From sequence record OR594183: DNA of 44,517 nucleotides. One strand, written 5' to 3'. The DNA is from Escherichia phage vB_EcoM_SHAK7858. The position numbers and the translations under genes were made by a program. A model generated the notes under the pieces. The model was not told the DNA's origin, did not search any database, and saw only the letters and a list, made by a program, of their open reading frames with translations. Shown here piece by piece: positions 1-44,517 of this stretch (its first letter is position 1; each line of letters starts with the position of its first letter).

Positions 1-1224
1 ATGCATTGCAAGTTTCCGGCATTCGTAGCTGGCTTCGGTACGGGTAAATCCGAAGTTATGTGCAACTCTGCACTACTCGACAGCATGGAAGGTGGTAGCG
101 ATTCTATCATCGCCATGTATGAGCCGACTTATGACCTGGTGCGCCTCATCCTTGCACCGCGTATGGAAGAAAAGCTCACCGACTGGGGTATCCGGTACAA
201 ATACAACAAGTCTGACAACATAATCTATACGTCTTCCGGACAATTTGGGGATTTTGTTCTGCGTACACTTGATAATCCAGCACGAATCGTTGGCTACGAA
301 TCGTTTCGTGCGAAAATCGACGAGTTGGACACCCTTAACATGGAGCACGCCGAGCACGCGTGGAACAAAGTCATCGCCCGTAACCGCCAGTTGCCGCGGA
401 CATATAAACCTATTACACCGAAACCTGCTAATACCGTTTCCGTGTTCACTACCCCGGAAGGATTCCGTTTCGTACATGACCGCTGGGTAGTCAAAAAGAA
501 TCCAGGCTACGAGATGATTCAGGCGTCCACCCTGTCTAACCCGTTCCTGCCAGAAGATTATGTGCAGTCGTTACGCGACACATACCCAGGTCAGTTGATT
601 GACGCCTACATCAACGGCGAGTTCGTCAACCTGACGGCGGGGACTGTCTATTACGCCTATGACCGCAGGAAAAACAGCAGCCGCGAAACAATAAAACCAG
701 GCGAGACTCTGTATATCGGGCAGGACTTTAACGTAGGCCACATGGCTAGTACAGTTTACGTGCAACGTGGCAAAGTCTGGCATGCAGTCGCCGAGTTGGT
801 GGATATGTTCGATACGCCCGATGTGGTGAGAGCCGTAACAGAGCGCTGGAAAAGTAAGGGCCACTATATCGTTATGTACCCCGACGCAAGCGGTAAAAAC
901 CGTAAAAGTAACAACGCCAGCACATCTGATATTGCCCAGTTACAGCAGGCCGGCTTCGAAGTGCGCGCTAAATCGACAAACCCACCGGTTAAAGACCGCG
1001 TAGCGGCGATGAATAAGGCGCTTGAATCTGGTATGGTCATGATTAATGAACAGGCTTGCCCTGTTACCGCACGATGCCTGGAGCAACAGGCTTACGACAA
1101 GAACGGCGAACCGGATAAATCAGGCGATGTGGACCACCAGAATGATGGAACCACATACCCTATAGCGTATGAAATGCCGATTCGCAAACCAGTTATTAAC
1201 GTCCCGGTGACTTTCGCACTTTAA
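1..1224 (+). CDS. Terminase large subunit, C-terminal 407 aa of the gene; the 5' end appears to lie at 44470-44517
   Basis: Walker-A-like AGFGTGKS at the N-terminal end of the fragment, RNase-H-like nuclease-type C-terminal region, position directly upstream of portal. Reading frame is continuous across the window junction. Confidence 0.85.
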   Translation: MHCKFPAFVAGFGTGKSEVMCNSALLDSMEGGSDSIIAMYEPTYDLVRLILAPRMEEKLTDWGIRYKYNKSDNIIYTSSGQFGDFVLRTLDNPARIVGYESFRAKIDELDTLNMEHAEHAWNKVIARNRQLPRTYKPITPKPANTVSVFTTPEGFRFVHDRWVVKKNPGYEMIQASTLSNPFLPEDYVQSLRDTYPGQLIDAYINGEFVNLTAGTVYYAYDRRKNSSRETIKPGETLYIGQDFNVGHMASTVYVQRGKVWHAVAELVDMFDTPDVVRAVTERWKSKGHYIVMYPDASGKNRKSNNASTSDIAQLQQAGFEVRAKSTNPPVKDRVAAMNKALESGMVMINEQACPVTARCLEQQAYDKNGEPDKSGDVDHQNDGTTYPIAYEMPIRKPVINVPVTFAL

Positions 1225-1236
1225 GAGGATTATTCA

Positions 1237-2712
1237 ATGTTAACTATGAACGGTCAGAATCAGGGTGTTAAGACAAAACACCGGGAATGGCTGCATCACT
1301 TCGATAAATGGCAGAAGGTACGCCACGCTCTTGAAGGCGACCTTATCCGCTATCTGCGCAACGTCGGGAAGAACGAGCCTGACCAGACCTACGCAGCACA
1401 GCGACAGGAAGAATACGAGAACGGCGCTATCTGCTACAATTTCACCAAACGCACGCTGGCGGGGATGACGGGGTCAGTGATGCGCAAAGACCCTGAGCAG
1501 ATTATCCCGCCTGAACTTGAGTACCTGTTGCACAACGCTGACGGTTCAGGTGTCGGGCTGTGGCAGCACGCGCAGGATACGCTGATGGAGATTAACTCGA
1601 TAGGCCGTGGCGGGTTGCTGGTGGACGCCCCGGAAACAGCCGCAGCAACGGCGGCAGAGCAGAACGCGGGATTATTAAACCCGGTAATCGCATTCTATAC
1701 CGCGGAGAACATTATCAACTGGAGACTCACCCGCATCGGTTCAGTGAACCGCGTGACGATGGTTGTATTGCGTGAGGCATGGGAATACTCGGAACCAGGC
1801 GCTGAGTTTGAAACAAAATTCGGCGAGCAATACCGCGTCCTTGACCTGATTGACGGTCGCTACCGCCAGCGCATCTACCGCTTCGATGCCGAAGGTGGCG
1901 CACAGGATGAAGTAATCGAAATCTTCCCGGAACTCGGCGAACAGTTGCGCGGTAAAATCCCGTTCACGTTCATTGGCGCAAGCAACAACGACGCCACTAT
2001 AGACGATGCGCCTTTACTGCCGTTAGCTGAGCTAAATATAGGACACTTCAGAAATTCGGCCGATGTGGAAGAGGCCAGCTTTATAGTAGGTCAACCGACA
2101 CTGTTCATTGCCCCCGGCGAGAACATGAGCATGGAGCAGTGGAAAGACGCCAACCCACACGGCATACGCATGGGGTCGCGTTCAGGCCACAACATCGGCT
2201 CCGGCGGAAATGCGTTTCTGGTTCAGGCGGCGGAAACTAACCTCGCCAAACAGAATATGCTGGATAAAGAGAATCAGGCCATCCAGATTGGCGCGCAGCT
2301 TATCACCCCGACGCAGCAAATCACCGCGGAATCGGCCCGCCTGCAACGCGGCGCCGACACGTCAGTCATGGCAACAATAGCACGTAATGTAAGCATGGCG
2401 TATACCGATGCGTTGCGCTGGGTTGCGGGTATGCTTGGGCTTAGTGAAGATACTGAGTTCAAGCTGAATATGGAATTCTTCCTGCAACCTATGACAGCTC
2501 AGGACCGCGCTCAGTGGATGGCGGATATTAACGCTGGCCTGCTACCCGCCACCGCTTACTATGCTGCGTTGCGCAAGGCAGGTGTGACTGACTGGACAGA
2601 TGAGGACATTCAGAACGCTATTGAAGACGCACCTCTGCCGTTGGGTTCTGTTGCTCAGGTAGCGGGAGAGATTCCGCAGTCGGCGCAGCAACAGGACACC
2701 ACTCAGCAGTAA
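1237..2712 (+). CDS. Portal protein
   Basis: 491 aa ORF immediately after the large terminase and before the Mu-F-like head protein; call is by size and gene order. Confidence 0.7.
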   Translation: MLTMNGQNQGVKTKHREWLHHFDKWQKVRHALEGDLIRYLRNVGKNEPDQTYAAQRQEEYENGAICYNFTKRTLAGMTGSVMRKDPEQIIPPELEYLLHNADGSGVGLWQHAQDTLMEINSIGRGGLLVDAPETAAATAAEQNAGLLNPVIAFYTAENIINWRLTRIGSVNRVTMVVLREAWEYSEPGAEFETKFGEQYRVLDLIDGRYRQRIYRFDAEGGAQDEVIEIFPELGEQLRGKIPFTFIGASNNDATIDDAPLLPLAELNIGHFRNSADVEEASFIVGQPTLFIAPGENMSMEQWKDANPHGIRMGSRSGHNIGSGGNAFLVQAAETNLAKQNMLDKENQAIQIGAQLITPTQQITAESARLQRGADTSVMATIARNVSMAYTDALRWVAGMLGLSEDTEFKLNMEFFLQPMTAQDRAQWMADINAGLLPATAYYAALRKAGVTDWTDEDIQNAIEDAPLPLGSVAQVAGEIPQSAQQQDTTQQ

Positions 2713-33286: not shown

Positions 33287-35535
33287 TCCAAATCCTCCTC
33301 GGTCACTGTCAGCATTTCATTCGGTTCGTATATTGTCTTCGGAATCTTGTTATCTGTTATCATGGTGTTCAGTCTGTAACGGCCTGGGATTATCTGATTG
33401 TTTTCGTCAGTACCCGGAACAAGATACCCAGCCTCAACCATTTTCTTAATCTTCCCGCGTTCTATGGCTTCTTTGGAGTTAAACGCCTTTGCGTTGGGGT
33501 CAGACTGCGCGAGCTTATTCGCTGCGGATACCGTGATGCCCTCGTTGCCGTTGTAGGTCCCCTCCGCCAGTTCAAACGCCGCGAGTATCGTGGCCTCGGA
33601 ACTGTTGACGGCGTTCTCTATGGTTTTACGTACATTTTGTTTACCTTCGTTAGTTAACCCTTCTTCCCTCTCTTTCTCCTCGTCGGTCTTGAATGGCTCG
33701 AAGCCCCACGGCATCAATACAAGCGCCTTGTGCGGCTCAGGCAGGTCGAGGTTTACTATTGTGCCGTATTCCTCTGTGCTACCGAGGAACTCAACCGCGC
33801 GGTACTCTTTCGGCGGCGGTGCTTCACGGAACTGTACAGACTCCAGTACCATGCCAACCGTCTTCTGTTGCGGACCGTGCTTAAATTTAGAGTGGTATAC
33901 GTTTATCTGACGGTCGGTAGCGCGTTCGATTGTCAGTTCCACGTCGACACCCGCATACAATGCTCCACTGCCGCGGGCTTTCTTTCCGCCCTTCGGAGTA
34001 TGGTGAACGACACCGACAGCGGCTTTAGTTGCATCGCGCACTTCTTTCAGGATGGCGATAACTTTACCCATACCGATTGCCGTTGATGAACTGTTCTCGT
34101 CGAACTTATCAATCGTCAGGGCCAGCGTCTGGTTAAGGGTGTCGAAGGCAACCATGCCAATAGGTTCATCCCCTGCGGTTTCGCGCATCCTGCGGATTAG
34201 AGCTGGAATTTTTTTATCACCATGCGTAGCGAGTATTTCGCCCATATCGATGACATGTACATAATCTTTACCTTCCTCGCCATATTTAGCCGCGAGTGCA
34301 TCAATACGTGTTCGTGTAGCTGCACCACCCTCGCCGTCAATATAGAAATGGTGGCAACGTTGGGTGTCAGCCCCCGCAAACCGGTACCCGGCGGCGCTCA
34401 GGTACATCATCCCCAGCGTATAGAATGATTTGTACGTGCCGGATTCCCCGACAATATCCCAGATACAATCCGACGGCATGTACCCCTCAACGACGAAATC
34501 AGCCTTTACCGGTTCTGGTAACTCGTCCTCTTCTTCAAGGTCTTCCAGCGTGCAAGTTACAGGCTCCTCGTTCTCTGTGCGGTGCAGTTCTTCAATCTCT
34601 TCATCCGGTAAATCAGGCAGAGCCGCACGAATGCTGTTAATACTGATAGGTTGCTTGTCTACGTTAAGCTCGTCCGGCAGGCCGCACATACGCAGGGCCA
34701 AATGCTGTCGGCGGTTAAGCTCGGTGCAAGCGCCGTTGTTTGTATGCTGGCACACAAAGCGCACTTCTTTACCATCAAGCATGATGCTTGTGGAGCCTTT
34801 GCCTGTATGCAGATGTTCGTTAGGGCATGGGACTTCGTACCCGCGCCCGGAAGATAAAGCGTCAAGGCCAAGCTCGGCTTCGCAGAAATGCGCTATATCA
34901 GCATTAAGCCCATACTCATCGGCGGCAAGTGTCTTAACTTCACGTTTACTCAACCCCATCTCTTCGGCTTTCTTGATGTACCGCTCGGCACGGATAACAC
35001 GCCCTTCTGTAACCGTTATCTTTGACTCTCTATGTGGCAGATAGATAAGGCGGTTGCCGTCTTCCGTGCAGTGGTCACGCAAGGCTTCATCTATTTCTAA
35101 CTCTGCACAAATAGCCCGTTGGACCATCCACGCGTCGTTAGAGTTAAACGGCGTGCGAGCCGGAACCAGAACGCGGAAGGCGTAATCACCGTTTTTACAC
35201 ACATGCTGATGCGATGCCGTTGTATGCAGAATATTGAAGAACGGTGCGTTCTTGAATTTGCGGGTAAGGTCGCGGTACTGAGTACGGTTGAGATGGTCAA
35301 AATCGAACTTAACCACACTGTCTTCCAGGATAGCGTTTTTACGGCGACCCCCAACAGGCGCAATAGCTTTCTGCTTAATCTTGGCAGCGTCGTACTCTTC
35401 CTTAGACCACGACGGATCCACGGATAAACGCTTCGATGTATCGCAGACATACTCCACAAACTGCTCGAGCGGCATCTCACGCGCTACAGGGTTTTTATCG
35501 AATGTGTTGCGCAGCGTTGCAAAAACAATATTCAT
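33283..35535 (-). CDS. DNA primase / RecA-like replicative ATPase fusion
   Basis: N-terminal primase-like region with a Cys/His zinc-binding segment; C-terminal Walker A GESGTYKS, Walker B MVAFDTL and VVHHTPKGG. Confidence 0.75.
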   Translation of the reverse strand: MNIVFATLRNTFDKNPVAREMPLEQFVEYVCDTSKRLSVDPSWSKEEYDAAKIKQKAIAPVGGRRKNAILEDSVVKFDFDHLNRTQYRDLTRKFKNAPFFNILHTTASHQHVCKNGDYAFRVLVPARTPFNSNDAWMVQRAICAELEIDEALRDHCTEDGNRLIYLPHRESKITVTEGRVIRAERYIKKAEEMGLSKREVKTLAADEYGLNADIAHFCEAELGLDALSSGRGYEVPCPNEHLHTGKGSTSIMLDGKEVRFVCQHTNNGACTELNRRQHLALRMCGLPDELNVDKQPISINSIRAALPDLPDEEIEELHRTENEEPVTCTLEDLEEEDELPEPVKADFVVEGYMPSDCIWDIVGESGTYKSFYTLGMMYLSAAGYRFAGADTQRCHHFYIDGEGGAATRTRIDALAAKYGEEGKDYVHVIDMGEILATHGDKKIPALIRRMRETAGDEPIGMVAFDTLNQTLALTIDKFDENSSSTAIGMGKVIAILKEVRDATKAAVGVVHHTPKGGKKARGSGALYAGVDVELTIERATDRQINVYHSKFKHGPQQKTVGMVLESVQFREAPPPKEYRAVEFLGSTEEYGTIVNLDLPEPHKALVLMPWGFEPFKTDEEKEREEGLTNEGKQNVRKTIENAVNSSEATILAAFELAEGTYNGNEGITVSAANKLAQSDPNAKAFNSKEAIERGKIKKMVEAGYLVPGTDENNQIIPGRYRLNTMITDNKIPKTIYEPNEMLTVTEEDLE

Positions 35536-35660
35536 TTCTTTTTCTCCGCACGTTCTAAGGCTTCCTGCATACGGCGCATTGCGCGGTTCATCTTTACCGG
35601 TGCGAAGAAGTCAGCGCCGTGTTTCTGGCGGCGTAGCTGTGGAACTATTAACTTTGTCAT
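35532..35660 (-). CDS. Hypothetical small basic protein (42 aa)
   Basis: Uninterrupted frame with SD aagga and stop/start overlap with the primase gene. Confidence 0.3.
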   Translation of the reverse strand: MTKLIVPQLRRQKHGADFFAPVKMNRAMRRMQEALERAEKKK

Positions 35661-35728
35661 TGTATAATCCTTATGCTTACTTTGATGATTTGTACTTTAG
35701 CCCCGACGTTCTGGCGTTGGGGTTTCTT

Positions 35729-35941
35729 TTACTTAACGCCCGCAATCCACGCACGCTCCGAAGCGTAGAAACGACACTTACTTAAAGCCTCGATTGGCAT
35801 CTTAATAATGCGTGTCGGTTCCAACAAATGATTAGGCTTACATATTTCCGCATAGAATCCGCTGTCAGTAATTTCCGACGCAAACTTAAACCAGTATTTA
35901 ACTTTACAGTTTTCAAAGTAACAACCCATACGCCCAATCAT
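35729..35941 (-). CDS. Hypothetical protein (70 aa)
   Basis: ORF translationally coupled to the upstream HTH gene. Confidence 0.4.
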   Translation of the reverse strand: MIGRMGCYFENCKVKYWFKFASEITDSGFYAEICKPNHLLEPTRIIKMPIEALSKCRFYASERAWIAGVK

Positions 35942-36120
35942 TTCACGTTCTCCTTAATCCATGCTTCAACTTTATTACGGTCAAATGTTCCTGGTAAACG
36001 GCGACCCATAACCTTAATACAGCAATCAGGGAATTTACCGCTGCGCAACCAGTTATTAATTGTTTGACGTGTCACCCCGATACGTTCAGCCACTTCATTC
36101 TGTGTCATGTAATGCTGCAT
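35938..36120 (-). CDS. Small HTH DNA-binding protein (AlpA/excisionase-like fold)
   Basis: MTQNEVAERIGVTRQTINNWLRSGKFP; start taken at the ATG with SD aggagat. Confidence 0.55.
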   Translation of the reverse strand: MQHYMTQNEVAERIGVTRQTINNWLRSGKFPDCCIKVMGRRLPGTFDRNKVEAWIKENVK

Positions 36121-36151
36121 TTTTATATCTCCTGTTTGTTTGGTGAAAACG

Positions 36152-36180
36152 AGTATAGGATAGCGTGAATGTAAAAGCAA
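36152..36180 (-). promoter_or_regulatory. Leftward promoter (TTGCTT-N17-TATACT) for the replication-side operon
   Basis: Read on the minus strand; followed by an aaacaggag leader before the HTH gene. Confidence 0.4.
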
Positions 36181-36227
36181 CCAAAACACCACACAAAGTT
36201 ACTAATATACAAAAGATGCTAATGGTA

Positions 36228-36370
36228 TTGACTTTTACTAAGAAATGTGCTAAGCTCCACCTGAGCTTGTGAAGTATGAACAAGCGACCGCGGTGCGGCA
36301 GGAAACGGAGCGGTGCGTCAGCACTGAGTGTAGTGTCGCTGCCTGCATTCGGAAGGGCCATAATCTATTG
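36228..36370 (+). promoter_or_regulatory. Conserved promoter-leader element, copy 2 (TTGACT-N17-TAAGCT plus leader)
   Basis: Same length as copy 1 at 4645-4787, identical 51-nt core at 36243-36293, diverged centre retaining the 10-mer ctgagtgtag. Confidence 0.5.
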
Positions 36371-36457
36371 TAAATCCCGTCTAAATAACCCAAGTCACTA
36401 ATAATTAAAAGTTTCTATAGTTGCCGTAAGCAAGGTAGAGAGTACTTCACTCCGCTG

Positions 36458-36477
36458 GGGTGGGCTAAAGCCCACCC
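36458..36477 (+). other. GC-rich hairpin in the leader downstream of promoter-leader copy 2
   Basis: gggtgggc-taaa-gcccaccc, not followed by a clear T-run. Confidence 0.3.
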
Positions 36478-36536
36478 GCTGCGTTGCGTACTCTTTAAAG
36501 AAACAAAAGAATCACAACGGCAACGTAACTAATCTC

Positions 36537-36565
36537 TTGCACACCCCAACATAATAGGATACTAT
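36537..36565 (+). promoter_or_regulatory. Sigma70-like promoter (TTGCAC-N17-TACTAT) with embedded palindrome ATAATAG-N4-CTATTCA
   Basis: Palindrome at 36551-36568; about 35 nt upstream of the ATG at 36600. Confidence 0.45.
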
Positions 36566-36599
36566 TCACTTATCGAAACGAGACATAAGGAATTTAGAA

Positions 36600-36818
36600 A
36601 TGAACAAAGCGACCGCAAGCGTAGTTTCCGCAATCAAAGAAGTTTACGGCATCGATATCTCAGAGCGCGTAATTATCGGGAACAAGCGCAACTTCTTTAC
36701 GTTCGACACCGACGGAATGGATGAAAATGATTTTGTTAACGTACAACGTTTCGCTAACGGTAAAGGACTTCGTAACGAGCCAGCGGGTTACAAGAAATTT
36801 GCTATCTACTTTAAATAA
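36600..36818 (+). CDS. Hypothetical protein (72 aa)
   Basis: ORF with SD and upstream promoter. Confidence 0.5.
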   Translation: MNKATASVVSAIKEVYGIDISERVIIGNKRNFFTFDTDGMDENDFVNVQRFANGKGLRNEPAGYKKFAIYFK

Positions 36819-36836
36819 GACAGAGGAGTGATGGTT

Positions 36837-37022
36837 ATGTTTAAGAAGAGTCAGTTGGTTCGGAATAAATCCACCGGCGATTTATTTACGGTAATAGAGT
36901 CGGAGTTAATGTGGTTCGGTTTTGTAGAGGTTAATAGCGTAGTTGGGTTTGGTAAAGGGTTACTCCGTAAATGTGATTTAGAACTCATCGGCAACAATTT
37001 TAAATTCAAAGGGGCGAAGTGA
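36837..37022 (+). CDS. Hypothetical protein (61 aa), AT-rich
   Basis: ORF with SD agaggag; start chosen by spacing. Confidence 0.4.
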   Translation: MFKKSQLVRNKSTGDLFTVIESELMWFGFVEVNSVVGFGKGLLRKCDLELIGNNFKFKGAK

Positions 37023-37462
37023 TGATTAAGCTAGAGATTAAATCGAAAGAGACAAGACAAACCGTAGCCAGTAAAGAATTCAACAGTAAATCTGAAATTG
37101 GCCCCTGGCTAAAACAGTACGCACATTTGCAGACTGTTTACATCCTTCTGACGAAAGCAAGTGGTGTAGTCACTTTACTTGAACCGGCATCGAATCATGA
37201 TGCTTGTGCCGACGACTATGAGGGGGGGGGGGTTGCCGTGAATAATATTTTAATTGCGGGGGTTGGTATGAGTCCGTATAACGAATTCCGCTTACGCCGT
37301 CTGATTGGCGGTCTGCGCGCCGCCGAGTTTGGTGTTGAATGCCGGGAAAAGGCGAAGTACGCCCCGTGGAAGTCGTGGCATTTGGCTCATGCTAAGGCGG
37401 TAGCACAGTACCGTGAGTACAAGTTAAACAGTTTTCTTAAGCACCACGGGGTTGAGTTATGA
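37019..37462 (+). CDS. Hypothetical protein (147 aa) containing an 11-G homopolymer
   Basis: ORF overlapping the previous stop; poly-G at 37222-37232 encodes EGGGV. Confidence 0.45.
   Translation: MMIKLEIKSKETRQTVASKEFNSKSEIGPWLKQYAHLQTVYILLTKASGVVTLLEPASNHDACADDYEGGGVAVNNILIAGVGMSPYNEFRLRRLIGGLRAAEFGVECREKAKYAPWKSWHLAHAKAVAQYREYKLNSFLKHHGVEL
37222..37232 (+). repeat. Homopolymeric G11 tract inside a coding region
   Basis: Eleven consecutive G read directly; position confirmed against the ORF frame. Confidence 0.9.
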
Positions 37463-37605
37463 GAGAAGCATTTGAACGTCGGGCCGTTGCAGATGGTCTG
37501 CCTGTCAACAAGGGCTCGCGGAACGAGTACCTTAGCGCTAAGACGCGTCTCGCGTGGCGGATGTGGAAAGCTGGTGTGCAGTATGCGATGAATACGAGGT
37601 GAGAT

Positions 37606-37794
37606 ATGGGCGAGTGGATTAAGTGTAGCGAGCGGATGCCGGAGCCTTATGAATACGTTCTTGTAACTGATGGTTTTGTCGGTTGTGAGGTTATGCGTGT
37701 TAATTCAGATGGCTACTGGGGACCAGCGAAGAGTTTATACCACGGCGATATCTCCCACTGGATGCCCTTACCTGAGCCACCGGCGCCGGTGTAA
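37606..37794 (+). CDS. Hypothetical protein (62 aa)
   Basis: ORF with SD; terminator downstream. Confidence 0.45.
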   Translation: MGEWIKCSERMPEPYEYVLVTDGFVGCEVMRVNSDGYWGPAKSLYHGDISHWMPLPEPPAPV

Positions 37795-37828
37795 CAGGTC
37801 AATAGTTTACTATTTGGCTTTGTGACTT

Positions 37829-37866
37829 ACGCTGCTACACAGCAGCGTATCATTTTTCTCATTTTT
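37829..37866 (+). terminator. Rho-independent terminator
   Basis: acgctgct-acac-agcagcgt followed by atcatttttctcattttt. Confidence 0.6.
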
Positions 37867-37942
37867 GTTCTATTTCACCAAACGCAACAATCGAAGCGAC
37901 TATTGCAGGAGATGCAACAATACAAACACCAATAAAATTTAC

Positions 37943-37971
37943 TTGCACACTAAAATAGAATAGGCTACTAT
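37943..37971 (+). promoter_or_regulatory. Sigma70-like promoter (TTGCAC-N17-TACTAT) with embedded palindrome AGAATAG-N4-CTATTCA
   Basis: Palindrome at 37957-37974; followed by the aaacgagaggagagacagag leader. Confidence 0.45.
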
Positions 37972-38001
37972 TCATTTACACAAACGAGAGGAGAGACAGA
38001 G

Positions 38002-43525: not shown

Positions 43526-43794
43526 TTGAATATGATAACTACCACATAAACCGGTGTGAGGCACTTGAATTTTTGTCCAGAAACTTCCACGATTTCCCAG
43601 AACACATGCCTAATGTACGCGAAGTTGCGGAGGGTATTTCCGAGAACATATTCAAAGGCTGGCGATTCGTCGTTATTGATTCTGGTGAGTTGGTTTTCGC
43701 TGATTGCCTTTCACCATGTATTCGTAAAATAGACCTTGAGGAATTTAATGCAACTTTTAGTCTTTCCGAATGCCTGGGTTATAGCGGTAGCTAA
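43522..43794 (+). CDS. Hypothetical protein (90 aa)
   Basis: ORF followed by a terminator. Confidence 0.45.
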   Translation: MIEYDNYHINRCEALEFLSRNFHDFPEHMPNVREVAEGISENIFKGWRFVVIDSGELVFADCLSPCIRKIDLEEFNATFSLSECLGYSGS

Positions 43795-43854
43795 CGACCA
43801 TTACGGCGGCGACGGTAAACGAGCGCCACGCCACGGCCTATATAACTGATACAA

Positions 43855-43878
43855 GCCCTCTACGGAGGGCTTTTCTGT
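43855..43878 (+). terminator. Rho-independent terminator
   Basis: gccctc-tacg-gagggc followed by ttttctgt. Confidence 0.65.
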
Positions 43879-43970
43879 ACATCCCGCCCAATCCCCTTAT
43901 ATAATCCCTTTAGACGCGTAGGGCGCGTCTGGTGCGCTCTGATGGTCAGACGCATATGCAAGGGGATTCT

Positions 43971-44480
43971 ATGAAGCTGAAACTTAAGCAGCCATCGCCA
44001 GAGGTGGTACAAGCTGCACATGAAGAAGCTGTTAGCGCAAACCGTCGCCGTAAACGACCGCGCGGTAAACAGAGCCTTTATCAATCATCCCGTAATTCTG
44101 CGGCATTGTGGGACCCGGACTACTGTGACGCGTTAATCGAGTTCTTCGACCGCACGTCGTGGGAGCTTGTGCCTACGTCTAAGGGTGACGAACGCCCGCT
44201 GATTCAGGATAAACCACCGTCACTGGCCCGCTTCGCCTTACACATCGGAGTCACTATCCCGATTATTAAGCTTTGGCTGCGTGAGATTCCCGCATTTGCA
44301 GAAGCCTGGGAGACAGCACAGGCGCTGGAAGAGGCATACTTCACTGAAACGGGGGCCGCGGGCATCTCTGCTACGTTTGCTGCCGCGAAACTGGGCCTGA
44401 ATAAAACAGTTGTCGCCGAAGAAGTACGCGACGAGCCAATCAGCGAAGTAACAATTAAGGTGGTGTCCGGTGAACGTTAA
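43971..44480 (+). CDS. Terminase small subunit (putative)
   Basis: 169 aa ORF immediately upstream of and overlapping the large terminase start, with a basic N-terminus and helical DNA-binding-like segment. Start could also be 43932 or 43956. Confidence 0.55.
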   Translation: MKLKLKQPSPEVVQAAHEEAVSANRRRKRPRGKQSLYQSSRNSAALWDPDYCDALIEFFDRTSWELVPTSKGDERPLIQDKPPSLARFALHIGVTIPIIKLWLREIPAFAEAWETAQALEEAYFTETGAAGISATFAAAKLGLNKTVVAEEVRDEPISEVTIKVVSGER

Positions 44481-44517
44481 TATCACGGCAACGGAGCCGC
44501 AAGGCGCGTTTCTCGGT
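44470..44517 (+). CDS. 5' end of the large terminase gene (GTG start), continuing in frame into position 1
   Basis: GTG preceded by SD aaggtgg; frame opens after a TAA at 44449-44451, runs to the last base of the window and is in phase with the ORF starting at position 1. Confidence 0.5.
   Translation, partial: MNVNITATEPQGAFLG

What the first reader, a model, noticed from the sequence alone, without database searches (positions are those of the whole stretch)
44449..44517. Large terminase reading frame is continuous across the window ends
A GTG at 44470 with SD aaggtgg opens a frame that runs to the last base of the window, and position 1 starts exactly in phase with the 407-aa terminase ORF. 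Joined, they give a 423-aa protein with the Walker A about 30 residues from the N-terminus. The window therefore looks like a circular or circularly permuted genome opened inside the terminase gene, and the terminase small subunit (43971-44480) belongs immediately upstream of it.
Basis: seen in the sequence. Interest (0 to 1): 0.5.

Follow-up and report, generated by a model that had tools for sequence, protein, structure and literature searches.

The report
Terminase gene split by record ends
The window is a complete Kagunavirus (E. coli siphophage) genome whose sequence record was cut open at an internal methionine codon of the large terminase gene, so the gene's first 16 codons sit at the far end; this is an ordinary record-layout artefact, not new biology.

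Summary
GTG 44470 to base 44517 is exactly 16 codons and continues in phase into the ORF at 1-1224, giving a 423-aa protein.

An open 16-codon frame alone is not beyond chance (P about 0.46). Comparative data show the extension is real:
- The joined ends align in one piece to 96 phage records, up to 99.8% identical.
- Where the region is internal, relatives annotate a 1272-nt terL from the same GTG, overlapping terS by 11 nt.
- In Jerseyvirus relatives the window's ATG is CTG (Leu), while the GTG and its Shine-Dalgarno are unchanged.
- 11 of 14 variable sites in the extension are third-codon positions.
- P10 and Q11, inside the extension, are invariant down to 27% identity.
- 101 of the 120 best database homologues listed are exactly 423 aa and one is 407 aa.

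The window is therefore a circularised or permuted Kagunavirus assembly opened at codon 17 of terL. Literature on the sister genus points to headful packaging, but the physical ends cannot be tested without reads. The feature is already known and of low interest. The practical result is that the 407-aa TerL is a truncated annotation.

The parts
44470..44517 (+). Codons 1-16 of the large terminase gene terL (VNVNITATEPQGAFLG; the GTG is read as fMet). Includes the invariant P10-Q11 motif.
   Evidence: Searches give the frame. One search shows the GTG and Shine-Dalgarno invariant in 9 relatives. One search shows 11 of 14 variable sites at codon position 3. One search shows P10 and Q11 invariant down to 27% identity.
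1..1224 (+). Codons 17-423 of terL plus the stop. Contains Walker A GFGTGKS (residues 26-32), Walker B with catalytic Glu (D123-E124), and an RNase H-like nuclease domain.
   Evidence: Pfam Terminase_6N and Terminase_6C. Invariant columns G27, G31, K32, D123, E124, D258, D311, D394 and D398. An AF2 model of a 99%-identical protein matches the D6E, Sf6, T4 and HK97 TerL structures.
44457..44463 (+). Shine-Dalgarno AAGGTGG, 6 nt upstream of the terL GTG and lying inside the 3' end of terS.
   Evidence: Identical in all 9 relatives compared.
43971..44480 (+). Small terminase subunit gene terS (169 aa). Its stop overlaps the terL start by 11 nt.
   Evidence: PHROG 3064 'terminase', E=2e-75, aligned from residue 1. 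Annotated as terS in NTEC3, fEg-Eco06 and ST20. ATG 43971 is preferred over GTG 43932.
1237..2712 (+). Portal protein gene, immediately downstream of terL. It completes the terS-terL-portal packaging cassette.
   Evidence: PHROG 145 portal, E=5e-146. Pfam DUF4055.

Best explanation
The window is a complete genome, about 44.5 kb, of a Kagunavirus-like E. coli siphophage (Guernseyvirinae). It was assembled as a circle or as a circularly permuted unit. Someone then linearised it at an ATG that they took to be the start of the large terminase gene. That ATG is in fact codon 17.

The true terL starts at GTG 44470, behind the Shine-Dalgarno AAGGTGG. It overlaps the end of terS by 11 nt, an arrangement typical of translationally coupled genes, and encodes a 423-aa protein. 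[quoted passage not shown] This most likely corresponds to the conserved adenine-pocket glutamine of terminase ATPases.

Shown here: frame continuity, a seamless junction, conservation of the GTG, Shine-Dalgarno and extension, non-conservation of the ATG, and the TerL fold.

Inferred: translational coupling, the role of Q11, and that virions carry terminally redundant, circularly permuted DNA packed by a headful mechanism, so that the record ends have no physical meaning.
For: - Frame arithmetic.
- The junction sequence (43856-44517 joined to 1-606) aligns over 100% of its length in one piece to 96 records. Identity is 99.8% to phage 590B and 99.6% to NTEC3. The match sits at widely different record coordinates and on both strands.
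- Across the junction, the base-by-base sequence is identical to NTEC3 and Bas71.
- terL is annotated as 1272 nt from the same GTG, with the 11-nt terS overlap, in NTEC3, fEg-Eco06, Bas71, ST20, RP180, PST-H1, SGP007 and dunkel.
- Codon 17 is CTG in the three Jerseyvirus-like Salmonella phages compared, while the GTG and Shine-Dalgarno are invariant.
- 11 of 14 variable sites in the 48 nt are at third-codon positions, P=7e-4.
- P10 and Q11 are invariant in 8 TerLs down to 27% identity and nearly invariant in 48 metagenomic homologues.
- 101 of the 120 best database homologues listed are exactly 423 aa, 116 are 415-429 aa, and only one is 407 aa.
- tblastn alignments to 38-55%-identical TerLs begin at query residues 3-5.
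- The AF2 model places residues 9-15 in a confident helix (pLDDT about 94 for residues 11-20) just before strand 21-26 and the P-loop.
- The best structural matches are full-length TerLs: D6E at 1.4e-20 and Sf6 gp2 at 1.4e-14.
- HK97 TerL has a conserved glutamine forming the adenosine pocket upstream of Walker A (PMC9410871).
- Packaging in relatives: Jerseyvirus K47 showed P1-like headful packaging by PhageTerm, a circular-like EcoRV map and a broad PFGE band (PMC10783031). PhageTerm found no termini in Kagunavirus fBC-Eco01 (PMC9825357). K1G and K1H TerL group near headful packagers (PMC5582158).
Against: - No sequencing reads or virion-end data exist for this phage, so circular permutation is an extrapolation from relatives.
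- The ATG at position 1 is conserved within Kagunavirus, so a minor internal initiation cannot be excluded.
- phiWAO78-1 annotates the 407-aa form even though its region is contiguous. That is an annotator's choice, not evidence.
- The role of Q11 was not mapped residue by residue onto a solved nucleotide complex.
Confidence: 0.95

Rival explanations
1. The ATG at position 1 is the true terL start (407 aa). The 16 in-frame codons at the other end of the record would then be untranslated sequence that happens to be open.
For: - An open 16-codon stretch has a chance probability of about 0.46.
- Several GenBank records annotate 407 aa, including phiEc3 and phiWAO78-1.
- One 407-aa database entry exists, P0077.
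Against: - The ATG is CTG (Leu) in the three Jerseyvirus-like Salmonella phages compared.
- No usable Shine-Dalgarno precedes it: AAGG lies 13 nt upstream.
- The extension evolves like coding sequence, with 11 of 14 changes at third positions.
- P10 and Q11 are invariant across distant TerLs.
- With the ATG start, Walker A would begin at residue 10 and the preceding helix would be lost.
- The phiEc3-type records cannot annotate the long form, because they are themselves cut 27 nt upstream of the ATG.
Confidence: 0.03
2. The window ends are true physical genome ends (cos or direct-terminal-repeat type) that lie inside terL. The gene would be reconstituted only after circularisation in the host.
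For: Nothing in the sequence directly excludes it, and there are no reads. Pac and cos sites are commonly near the terminase genes (general knowledge).
Against: - The cut falls exactly at an ATG codon boundary, as expected from a human or software re-orientation.
- There is no terminal repeat at the ends.
- Relatives 92-99.8% identical at this locus are deposited with the same sequence internal, and they are opened at many different places.
- PhageTerm found no termini in a Kagunavirus and headful packaging in a Jerseyvirus.
Confidence: 0.02
3. Both starts are used. The GTG would give full-length TerL, and the internal ATG would give a shorter isoform lacking the Pro-Gln helix, acting for example as a regulator of motor assembly.
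For: The ATG is conserved within Kagunavirus-type sequences.
Against: - It is not conserved in the sister genus, where the codon is CTG.
- There is no Shine-Dalgarno at a functional distance.
- Met at that position is adequately explained as an ordinary residue.
Confidence: 0.03

Closest known systems
terS-terL cassette of Kagunavirus phages NTEC3 (OK539620), 590B (MW722821), fEg-Eco06 (PQ141284) and BASEL Bas70-76
   Same: The sequence across the junction is 97.6-99.9% identical. terL is 1272 nt from the same GTG, with the same 11-nt overlap with terS, followed by the portal gene.
   Different: Only the place where the record is opened differs. Over the whole genome the window is at most about 94% identical to any record in the collection, so it is a distinct isolate or species-level relative.
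Truncated 407-aa TerL annotations in phiEc3, phiEc4, Golestan, SCS44, BEU33/35, fFiEco03 and SHAK7693
   Same: The same artefact occurs. These records are opened inside terL, 27 nt upstream of the same ATG, and terL is annotated from that ATG.
   Different: The window is cut exactly at the ATG rather than 27 nt before it.
Jerseyvirus (Salmonella) large terminase, e.g. dunkel, PST-H1 and the Kenya-K phages
   Same: 83-89% amino-acid identity, 423 aa, and the same GTG, Shine-Dalgarno and terS overlap. Headful packaging has been shown experimentally and by PhageTerm for K47.
   Different: Codon 17 is Leu (CTG) instead of Met. The host genus is different.
Solved large terminases: D6E TerL (5OE8/5OEA), Sf6 gp2 (4IDH), T4 gp17 (3CPE), HK97 TerL (6Z6D)
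   Same: The same two-domain fold, an ASCE ATPase plus an RNase H-like nuclease (Foldseek probability 1.00). A conserved glutamine lies upstream of Walker A, as reported for HK97 Q33.
   Different: Only 10-18% sequence identity, and no hit by sequence search of the PDB. The protein is compact at 423 aa with a very short N-terminus.

Membership tests
Phage large terminase (TerL; Pfam Terminase_6N + Terminase_6C) | N-terminal ASCE ATPase domain with a Walker A P-loop (GxxxxGK[ST]) | tested here: met
   GFGTGKS at residues 26-32. G27, G31 and K32 are invariant. Terminase_6N matches at E=1.5e-11, above the gathering score.
Phage large terminase (TerL; Pfam Terminase_6N + Terminase_6C) | Walker B followed by a catalytic glutamate (hhhhDE) | tested here: met
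   AKIDE, with D123 and E124 invariant, at the end of predicted strand 119-123.
Phage large terminase (TerL; Pfam Terminase_6N + Terminase_6C) | [quoted passage not shown] | tested here: inconclusive
   Q11, preceded by P10, is invariant in 8 TerLs down to 27% identity and lies 21 residues before K32. It sits in a confident helix. HK97 Q33 is described as this residue. Residue-level superposition on a nucleotide complex was not done.
Phage large terminase (TerL; Pfam Terminase_6N + Terminase_6C) | C-terminal RNase H-like nuclease domain with conserved acidic residues | tested here: met
   Terminase_6C matches at E=3e-11. D258, D311, D394 and D398 are invariant. The model matches the SPP1 G2P nuclease domain and RuvC.
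Phage large terminase (TerL; Pfam Terminase_6N + Terminase_6C) | Overall fold matches solved TerL structures | tested here: met
   AF2 model of P0001 (99% identical), pLDDT 83. Foldseek matches: D6E 1.4e-20, Sf6 1.4e-14, T4 8e-11, HK97 1e-10.
Phage large terminase (TerL; Pfam Terminase_6N + Terminase_6C) | Gene context: terS upstream, portal downstream | tested here: met
   PHROG 3064 terminase (terS) and PHROG 145 portal. The order is restored only when the window ends are joined.
Genus Kagunavirus (Guernseyvirinae) | Genome-wide nucleotide similarity to recognised members (genus level roughly 70% or more) and co-linear gene order | tested here: met
   92.6-94.1% identity over 95-100% of window 1-24000 in the seven distinct phages with the fullest matches, and 90-92% over about 75% of 24001-44517, to Kagunavirus records. 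Taxonomy lines are given.
Circular or circularly permuted assembly (record ends arbitrary) | Joined ends are co-linear with relatives, with no missing or duplicated bases | tested here: met
   One-piece, 100%-coverage alignments to 96 records. Identical bases across the junction in NTEC3 and Bas71. No terminal repeat.
Headful (pac) packaging with terminal redundancy | No fixed virion ends or a pac-fragment series; more than 100% of the genome per head | not testable with these tools
   This needs reads or virion DNA. Only literature on relatives is available: Jerseyvirus K47 is headful, Kagunavirus fBC-Eco01 has no termini, and K1G/K1H TerL group near headful clades.

The most novel reading that the evidence does not exclude
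In Kagunavirus-type phages, but not in Jerseyvirus, the conserved internal ATG (codon 17) might serve as a second initiation site. It would produce a TerL isoform lacking the Pro-Gln adenine-pocket helix, which could modulate assembly or ATPase activity of the packaging motor.
Probability: 0.03. Interest if true: 0.3.

Novelty: already known. Interest (0 to 1): 0.06.

Why it matters
The value here is annotation hygiene only.
- The 407-aa TerL that a linear reading of this record yields is truncated. It lacks an invariant ATPase element.
- The same truncation is already present in at least eight GenBank Kagunavirus records and can spread by homology-based annotation or re-orientation.
- Anyone using this genome for terminase phylogeny, packaging-type prediction or synthetic rebooting should use the 423-aa product, written as join(44470..44517,1..1224), and treat the record as circular.
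- The finding raises no new biological question.

Tried and rejected
- A sequence search of the PDB with the 423-aa protein gave only noise (E of 0.15 or worse). A fold search was needed instead.
I used P0001, a 99%-identical database homologue.
- Literature searches for 'Jerseyvirinae' with 'circularly permuted', and for the terminase 'Q motif', returned nothing useful. The phi28 paper uses 'Q-motif' for different residues, so I cite the HK97 paper instead.
- I considered that the window might be phage ST20, which has the identical length of 44,517 bp. I rejected this because identity at this locus is only 92%.
- I looked for terminal redundancy between the window ends and found none.
- I searched 43700-44517 for repeats that might mark a pac site and found only short, chance-level repeats.
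- I rejected the alternative terS start at GTG 43932, because the intervening 13 codons change at first and second codon positions between genera.

Full report
**Observation**

- A GTG lies at 44470. It is preceded by AAGGTGG at 44457-44463, with a 6-nt spacer.
- The GTG opens a frame that runs for 48 nt, or 16 codons, to the last base, 44517.
- The in-frame stop upstream is TAA at 44449-44451.
- Position 1 is an ATG in the same phase, and that ORF ends at 1224.
- The joined ORF is 1272 nt, or 423 aa: VNVNITATEPQGAFLG|MHCKFPAFVAGFGTGKSEV... Walker A, GFGTGKS, is at residues 26-32.
- The upstream ORF 43971-44480 ends 11 nt after the GTG.
- There is no direct repeat of 8 nt or more shared by the two window ends.

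**Is it more than chance?**

Not by itself. Sixteen stop-free codons occur with probability about 0.46 in random sequence. The perfect phase is what one gets whenever a record is cut at a codon. The case has to be made comparatively, and it can be.

**What the window is**

Megablast of the two halves of the window against 50,697 phage records finds no identical record. It does find Kagunavirus (Guernseyvirinae) genomes.
- Identity is 92.6-94.1% over 95-100% of window 1-24000 in the seven distinct phages with the fullest matches.
- Identity is about 90-92% over about 75% of window 24001-44517.

The window is therefore a complete genome of a Kagunavirus-like E. coli siphophage. Relatives are 41-45.5 kb.

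**The junction is seamless**

I built a 1268-nt query from 43856-44517 joined to 1-606.
- It aligns over 100% of its length in a single piece to 96 records. Identity is 99.8% to phage 590B, 99.6% to NTEC3 and 99.2% to 22664BS2.
- The matches lie at very different record coordinates and on both strands.
- Base by base, the 108 nt around the junction are identical in NTEC3 and Bas71.

So nothing is missing or duplicated at the window ends. The deposited relatives are opened at essentially arbitrary positions.

**Which start codon is real**

- Annotation in relatives. Where the region is internal, terL is annotated as 1272 nt from the same GTG, overlapping terS by 11 nt. This holds for NTEC3, fEg-Eco06, Bas71, ST20, RP180 and the Salmonella phages PST-H1, SGP007 and dunkel.
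- Truncated annotations. Records opened 27 nt upstream of the ATG cannot hold the long form and annotate 407 aa. These include phiEc3, phiEc4, Golestan, SCS44, BEU33/35, fFiEco03 and SHAK7693.
- Conservation of the starts. The GTG and the Shine-Dalgarno are invariant in all nine relatives aligned. The window's ATG codon is CTG (Leu) in the three Jerseyvirus-like Salmonella phages.
- Substitution pattern. Of 14 variable sites in the 48-nt extension, 11 are third-codon positions (binomial P=7e-4). Only two codons change the amino acid.
- Distant homologues. In an alignment with TerLs down to 27% identity, P10 and Q11 are invariant, alongside G27, G31, K32 (Walker A) and D123, E124 (Walker B). 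The set comprised the dunkel and UTEC10 TerLs (UTEC10 carries the K1G-type TerL), Klebsiella Fuzzy, Vibrio 1.115.A and 1.226.O, Pseudomonas MR15 and HK578.
- tblastn. Alignments to TerLs 38-55% identical start at query residues 3-5. PHROG terminase profiles align from residue 6.
- Database lengths. In the 5.8-billion-protein database, 101 of the 120 best homologues listed (61-99% identity) are exactly 423 aa, 116 are 415-429 aa, and only one is 407 aa. P10 and Q11 are nearly invariant in a 48-sequence sample.

**Protein identity and the role of the stranded residues**

- Pfam gives Terminase_6N at residues 24-233 and Terminase_6C at 255-404.
- A sequence search of the PDB finds nothing.
- An AlphaFold2 model of P0001, a 423-aa homologue 99% identical, has mean pLDDT 83.
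- Its best structural matches are full-length large terminases: D6E at 1.4e-20, Sf6 gp2 at 1.4e-14, T4 gp17 and HK97.
- In the model, residues 9-15 form a helix immediately before strand 21-26 and the P-loop. Mean pLDDT is about 94 for residues 11-20.
- For HK97 TerL, a conserved glutamine (Q33) upstream of Walker A is reported to form the adenosine pocket (PMC9410871).
- Q11 lies 21 residues before K32 and is the obvious counterpart. This is an inference, because I did not do a residue-level superposition.
- The 407-aa form would lack this element and would place Walker A at residue 10.

**How it works**

Some steps are shown and some inferred.
- terS (169 aa; PHROG 3064, E=2e-75), terL and the portal gene (PHROG 145) form the usual packaging cassette.
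- The terL Shine-Dalgarno and GTG lie inside the last codons of terS. That arrangement is typical of translational coupling (inferred).
- The record was probably re-oriented to 'start at terL' using a 407-aa reference or gene call (inferred).
- The type phage K1G is itself deposited as a circular record starting at its own full-length terL ATG, with terS spanning the origin. Starting at terL is therefore a genus convention.

**Physical ends**

These cannot be tested here. The literature on relatives points to headful packaging.
- Jerseyvirus K47 gave a P1-like headful call by PhageTerm, a circular-type EcoRV map and a broad PFGE band (PMC10783031).
- PhageTerm found no termini in Kagunavirus fBC-Eco01 (PMC9825357).
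- K1G and K1H TerL group near headful packagers (PMC5582158).
- Other Guernseyvirinae assemblies are reported as circularly permuted, with genes spanning the contig ends (PMC9409062).

I put headful, permuted packaging at about 0.75. I put 'the window ends are not physical ends' at about 0.95.

**Comparison with known systems, and novelty**

The gene, its start, its overlap with terS and its family are all already annotated in close relatives. What is 'found' is a linearisation artefact and the truncated annotation it invites. Novelty is 'already known' and interest is low. The useful outcome is the corrected feature, join(44470..44517,1..1224), and the advice to treat the record as circular.

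**Side observations**

- The packaging module is mosaic. This TerL is closer to Jerseyvirus TerL (83-89% aa) than to the K1G-type TerL of other Kagunaviruses (about 54%). Against UTEC10 it is 42% identical in the ATPase domain and 70% in the nuclease domain.
- Upstream of terS there are three elements in order. The first is a hairpin with a T-run. The second is a promoter-like site, TGTACA-18-TATAAT, at 43876-43905. The third is a hairpin at 43912-43930 whose stem is largely conserved, but not its loop, between genera.
- ATG 43971 is the better terS start than GTG 43932.

Noticed in passing
window 43971-44517 + 1-1224 (terS and terL), compared with L011 (UTEC10) and L017 (K1G): The packaging module is mosaic within the genus. 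The window's TerL is 83-89% aa identical to Salmonella Jerseyvirus TerL but only about 54% to the K1G-type TerL of other Kagunaviruses (Shashou, UTEC10, KMB36). Against UTEC10 it is 42% identical in the ATPase domain and 70% in the nuclease domain. Those phages match the window at nucleotide level only from about position 596 onward.
   Followed up: partly
window 43856-43930: Three elements lie upstream of terS. A hairpin with a T-run, CCCTC-TACG-GAGGG-CTTTTCT, is at 43856-43876. A promoter-like site, TGTACA-18-TATAAT, is at 43876-43905. A 7-bp hairpin, AGACGCG-TAGGG-CGCGTCT, is at 43912-43930. A 6-bp version of its stem is kept while the loop differs in SGP007 and dunkel. It may be a late-operon promoter with a 5' stem-loop, or be pac-related. 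This was not tested.
   Followed up: partly
window 43932-43971: There are two competing terS starts in public records: GTG 43932 (Bas70-76, RP180; an ATG at the same place in dunkel) and ATG 43971 (NTEC3, fEg-Eco06, ST20). The 13 codons between them change at first and second codon positions between genera. PHROG 3064 aligns from residue 1 of the short form. ATG 43971, with Shine-Dalgarno AAGGGG, is therefore favoured.
   Followed up: yes
GenBank records phiEc3 (L004), phiEc4, Golestan, SCS44, BEU33, BEU35, fFiEco03, SHAK7693: At least eight deposited Kagunavirus genomes are opened 27 nt upstream of the same ATG, which is also inside terL. Those whose annotation was inspected (phiEc3) carry the truncated 407-aa TerL; BEU33 and BEU35 have no annotation. 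phiWAO78-1 annotates 407 aa even though the region is contiguous in its record.
   Followed up: partly
whole window versus MF153391 (ST20): Phage ST20 has exactly the same record length, 44,517 bp, as the window. It is only about 92% identical at the terS-terL locus and is deposited in the opposite orientation. The equal length appears to be coincidence.
   Followed up: partly
window about 35000-38000: G+C content dips to about 0.45, and GC skew changes sign where minus-strand replication genes meet plus-strand early genes. This is probably the divergent early-promoter or origin region. It was not examined.
   Followed up: no
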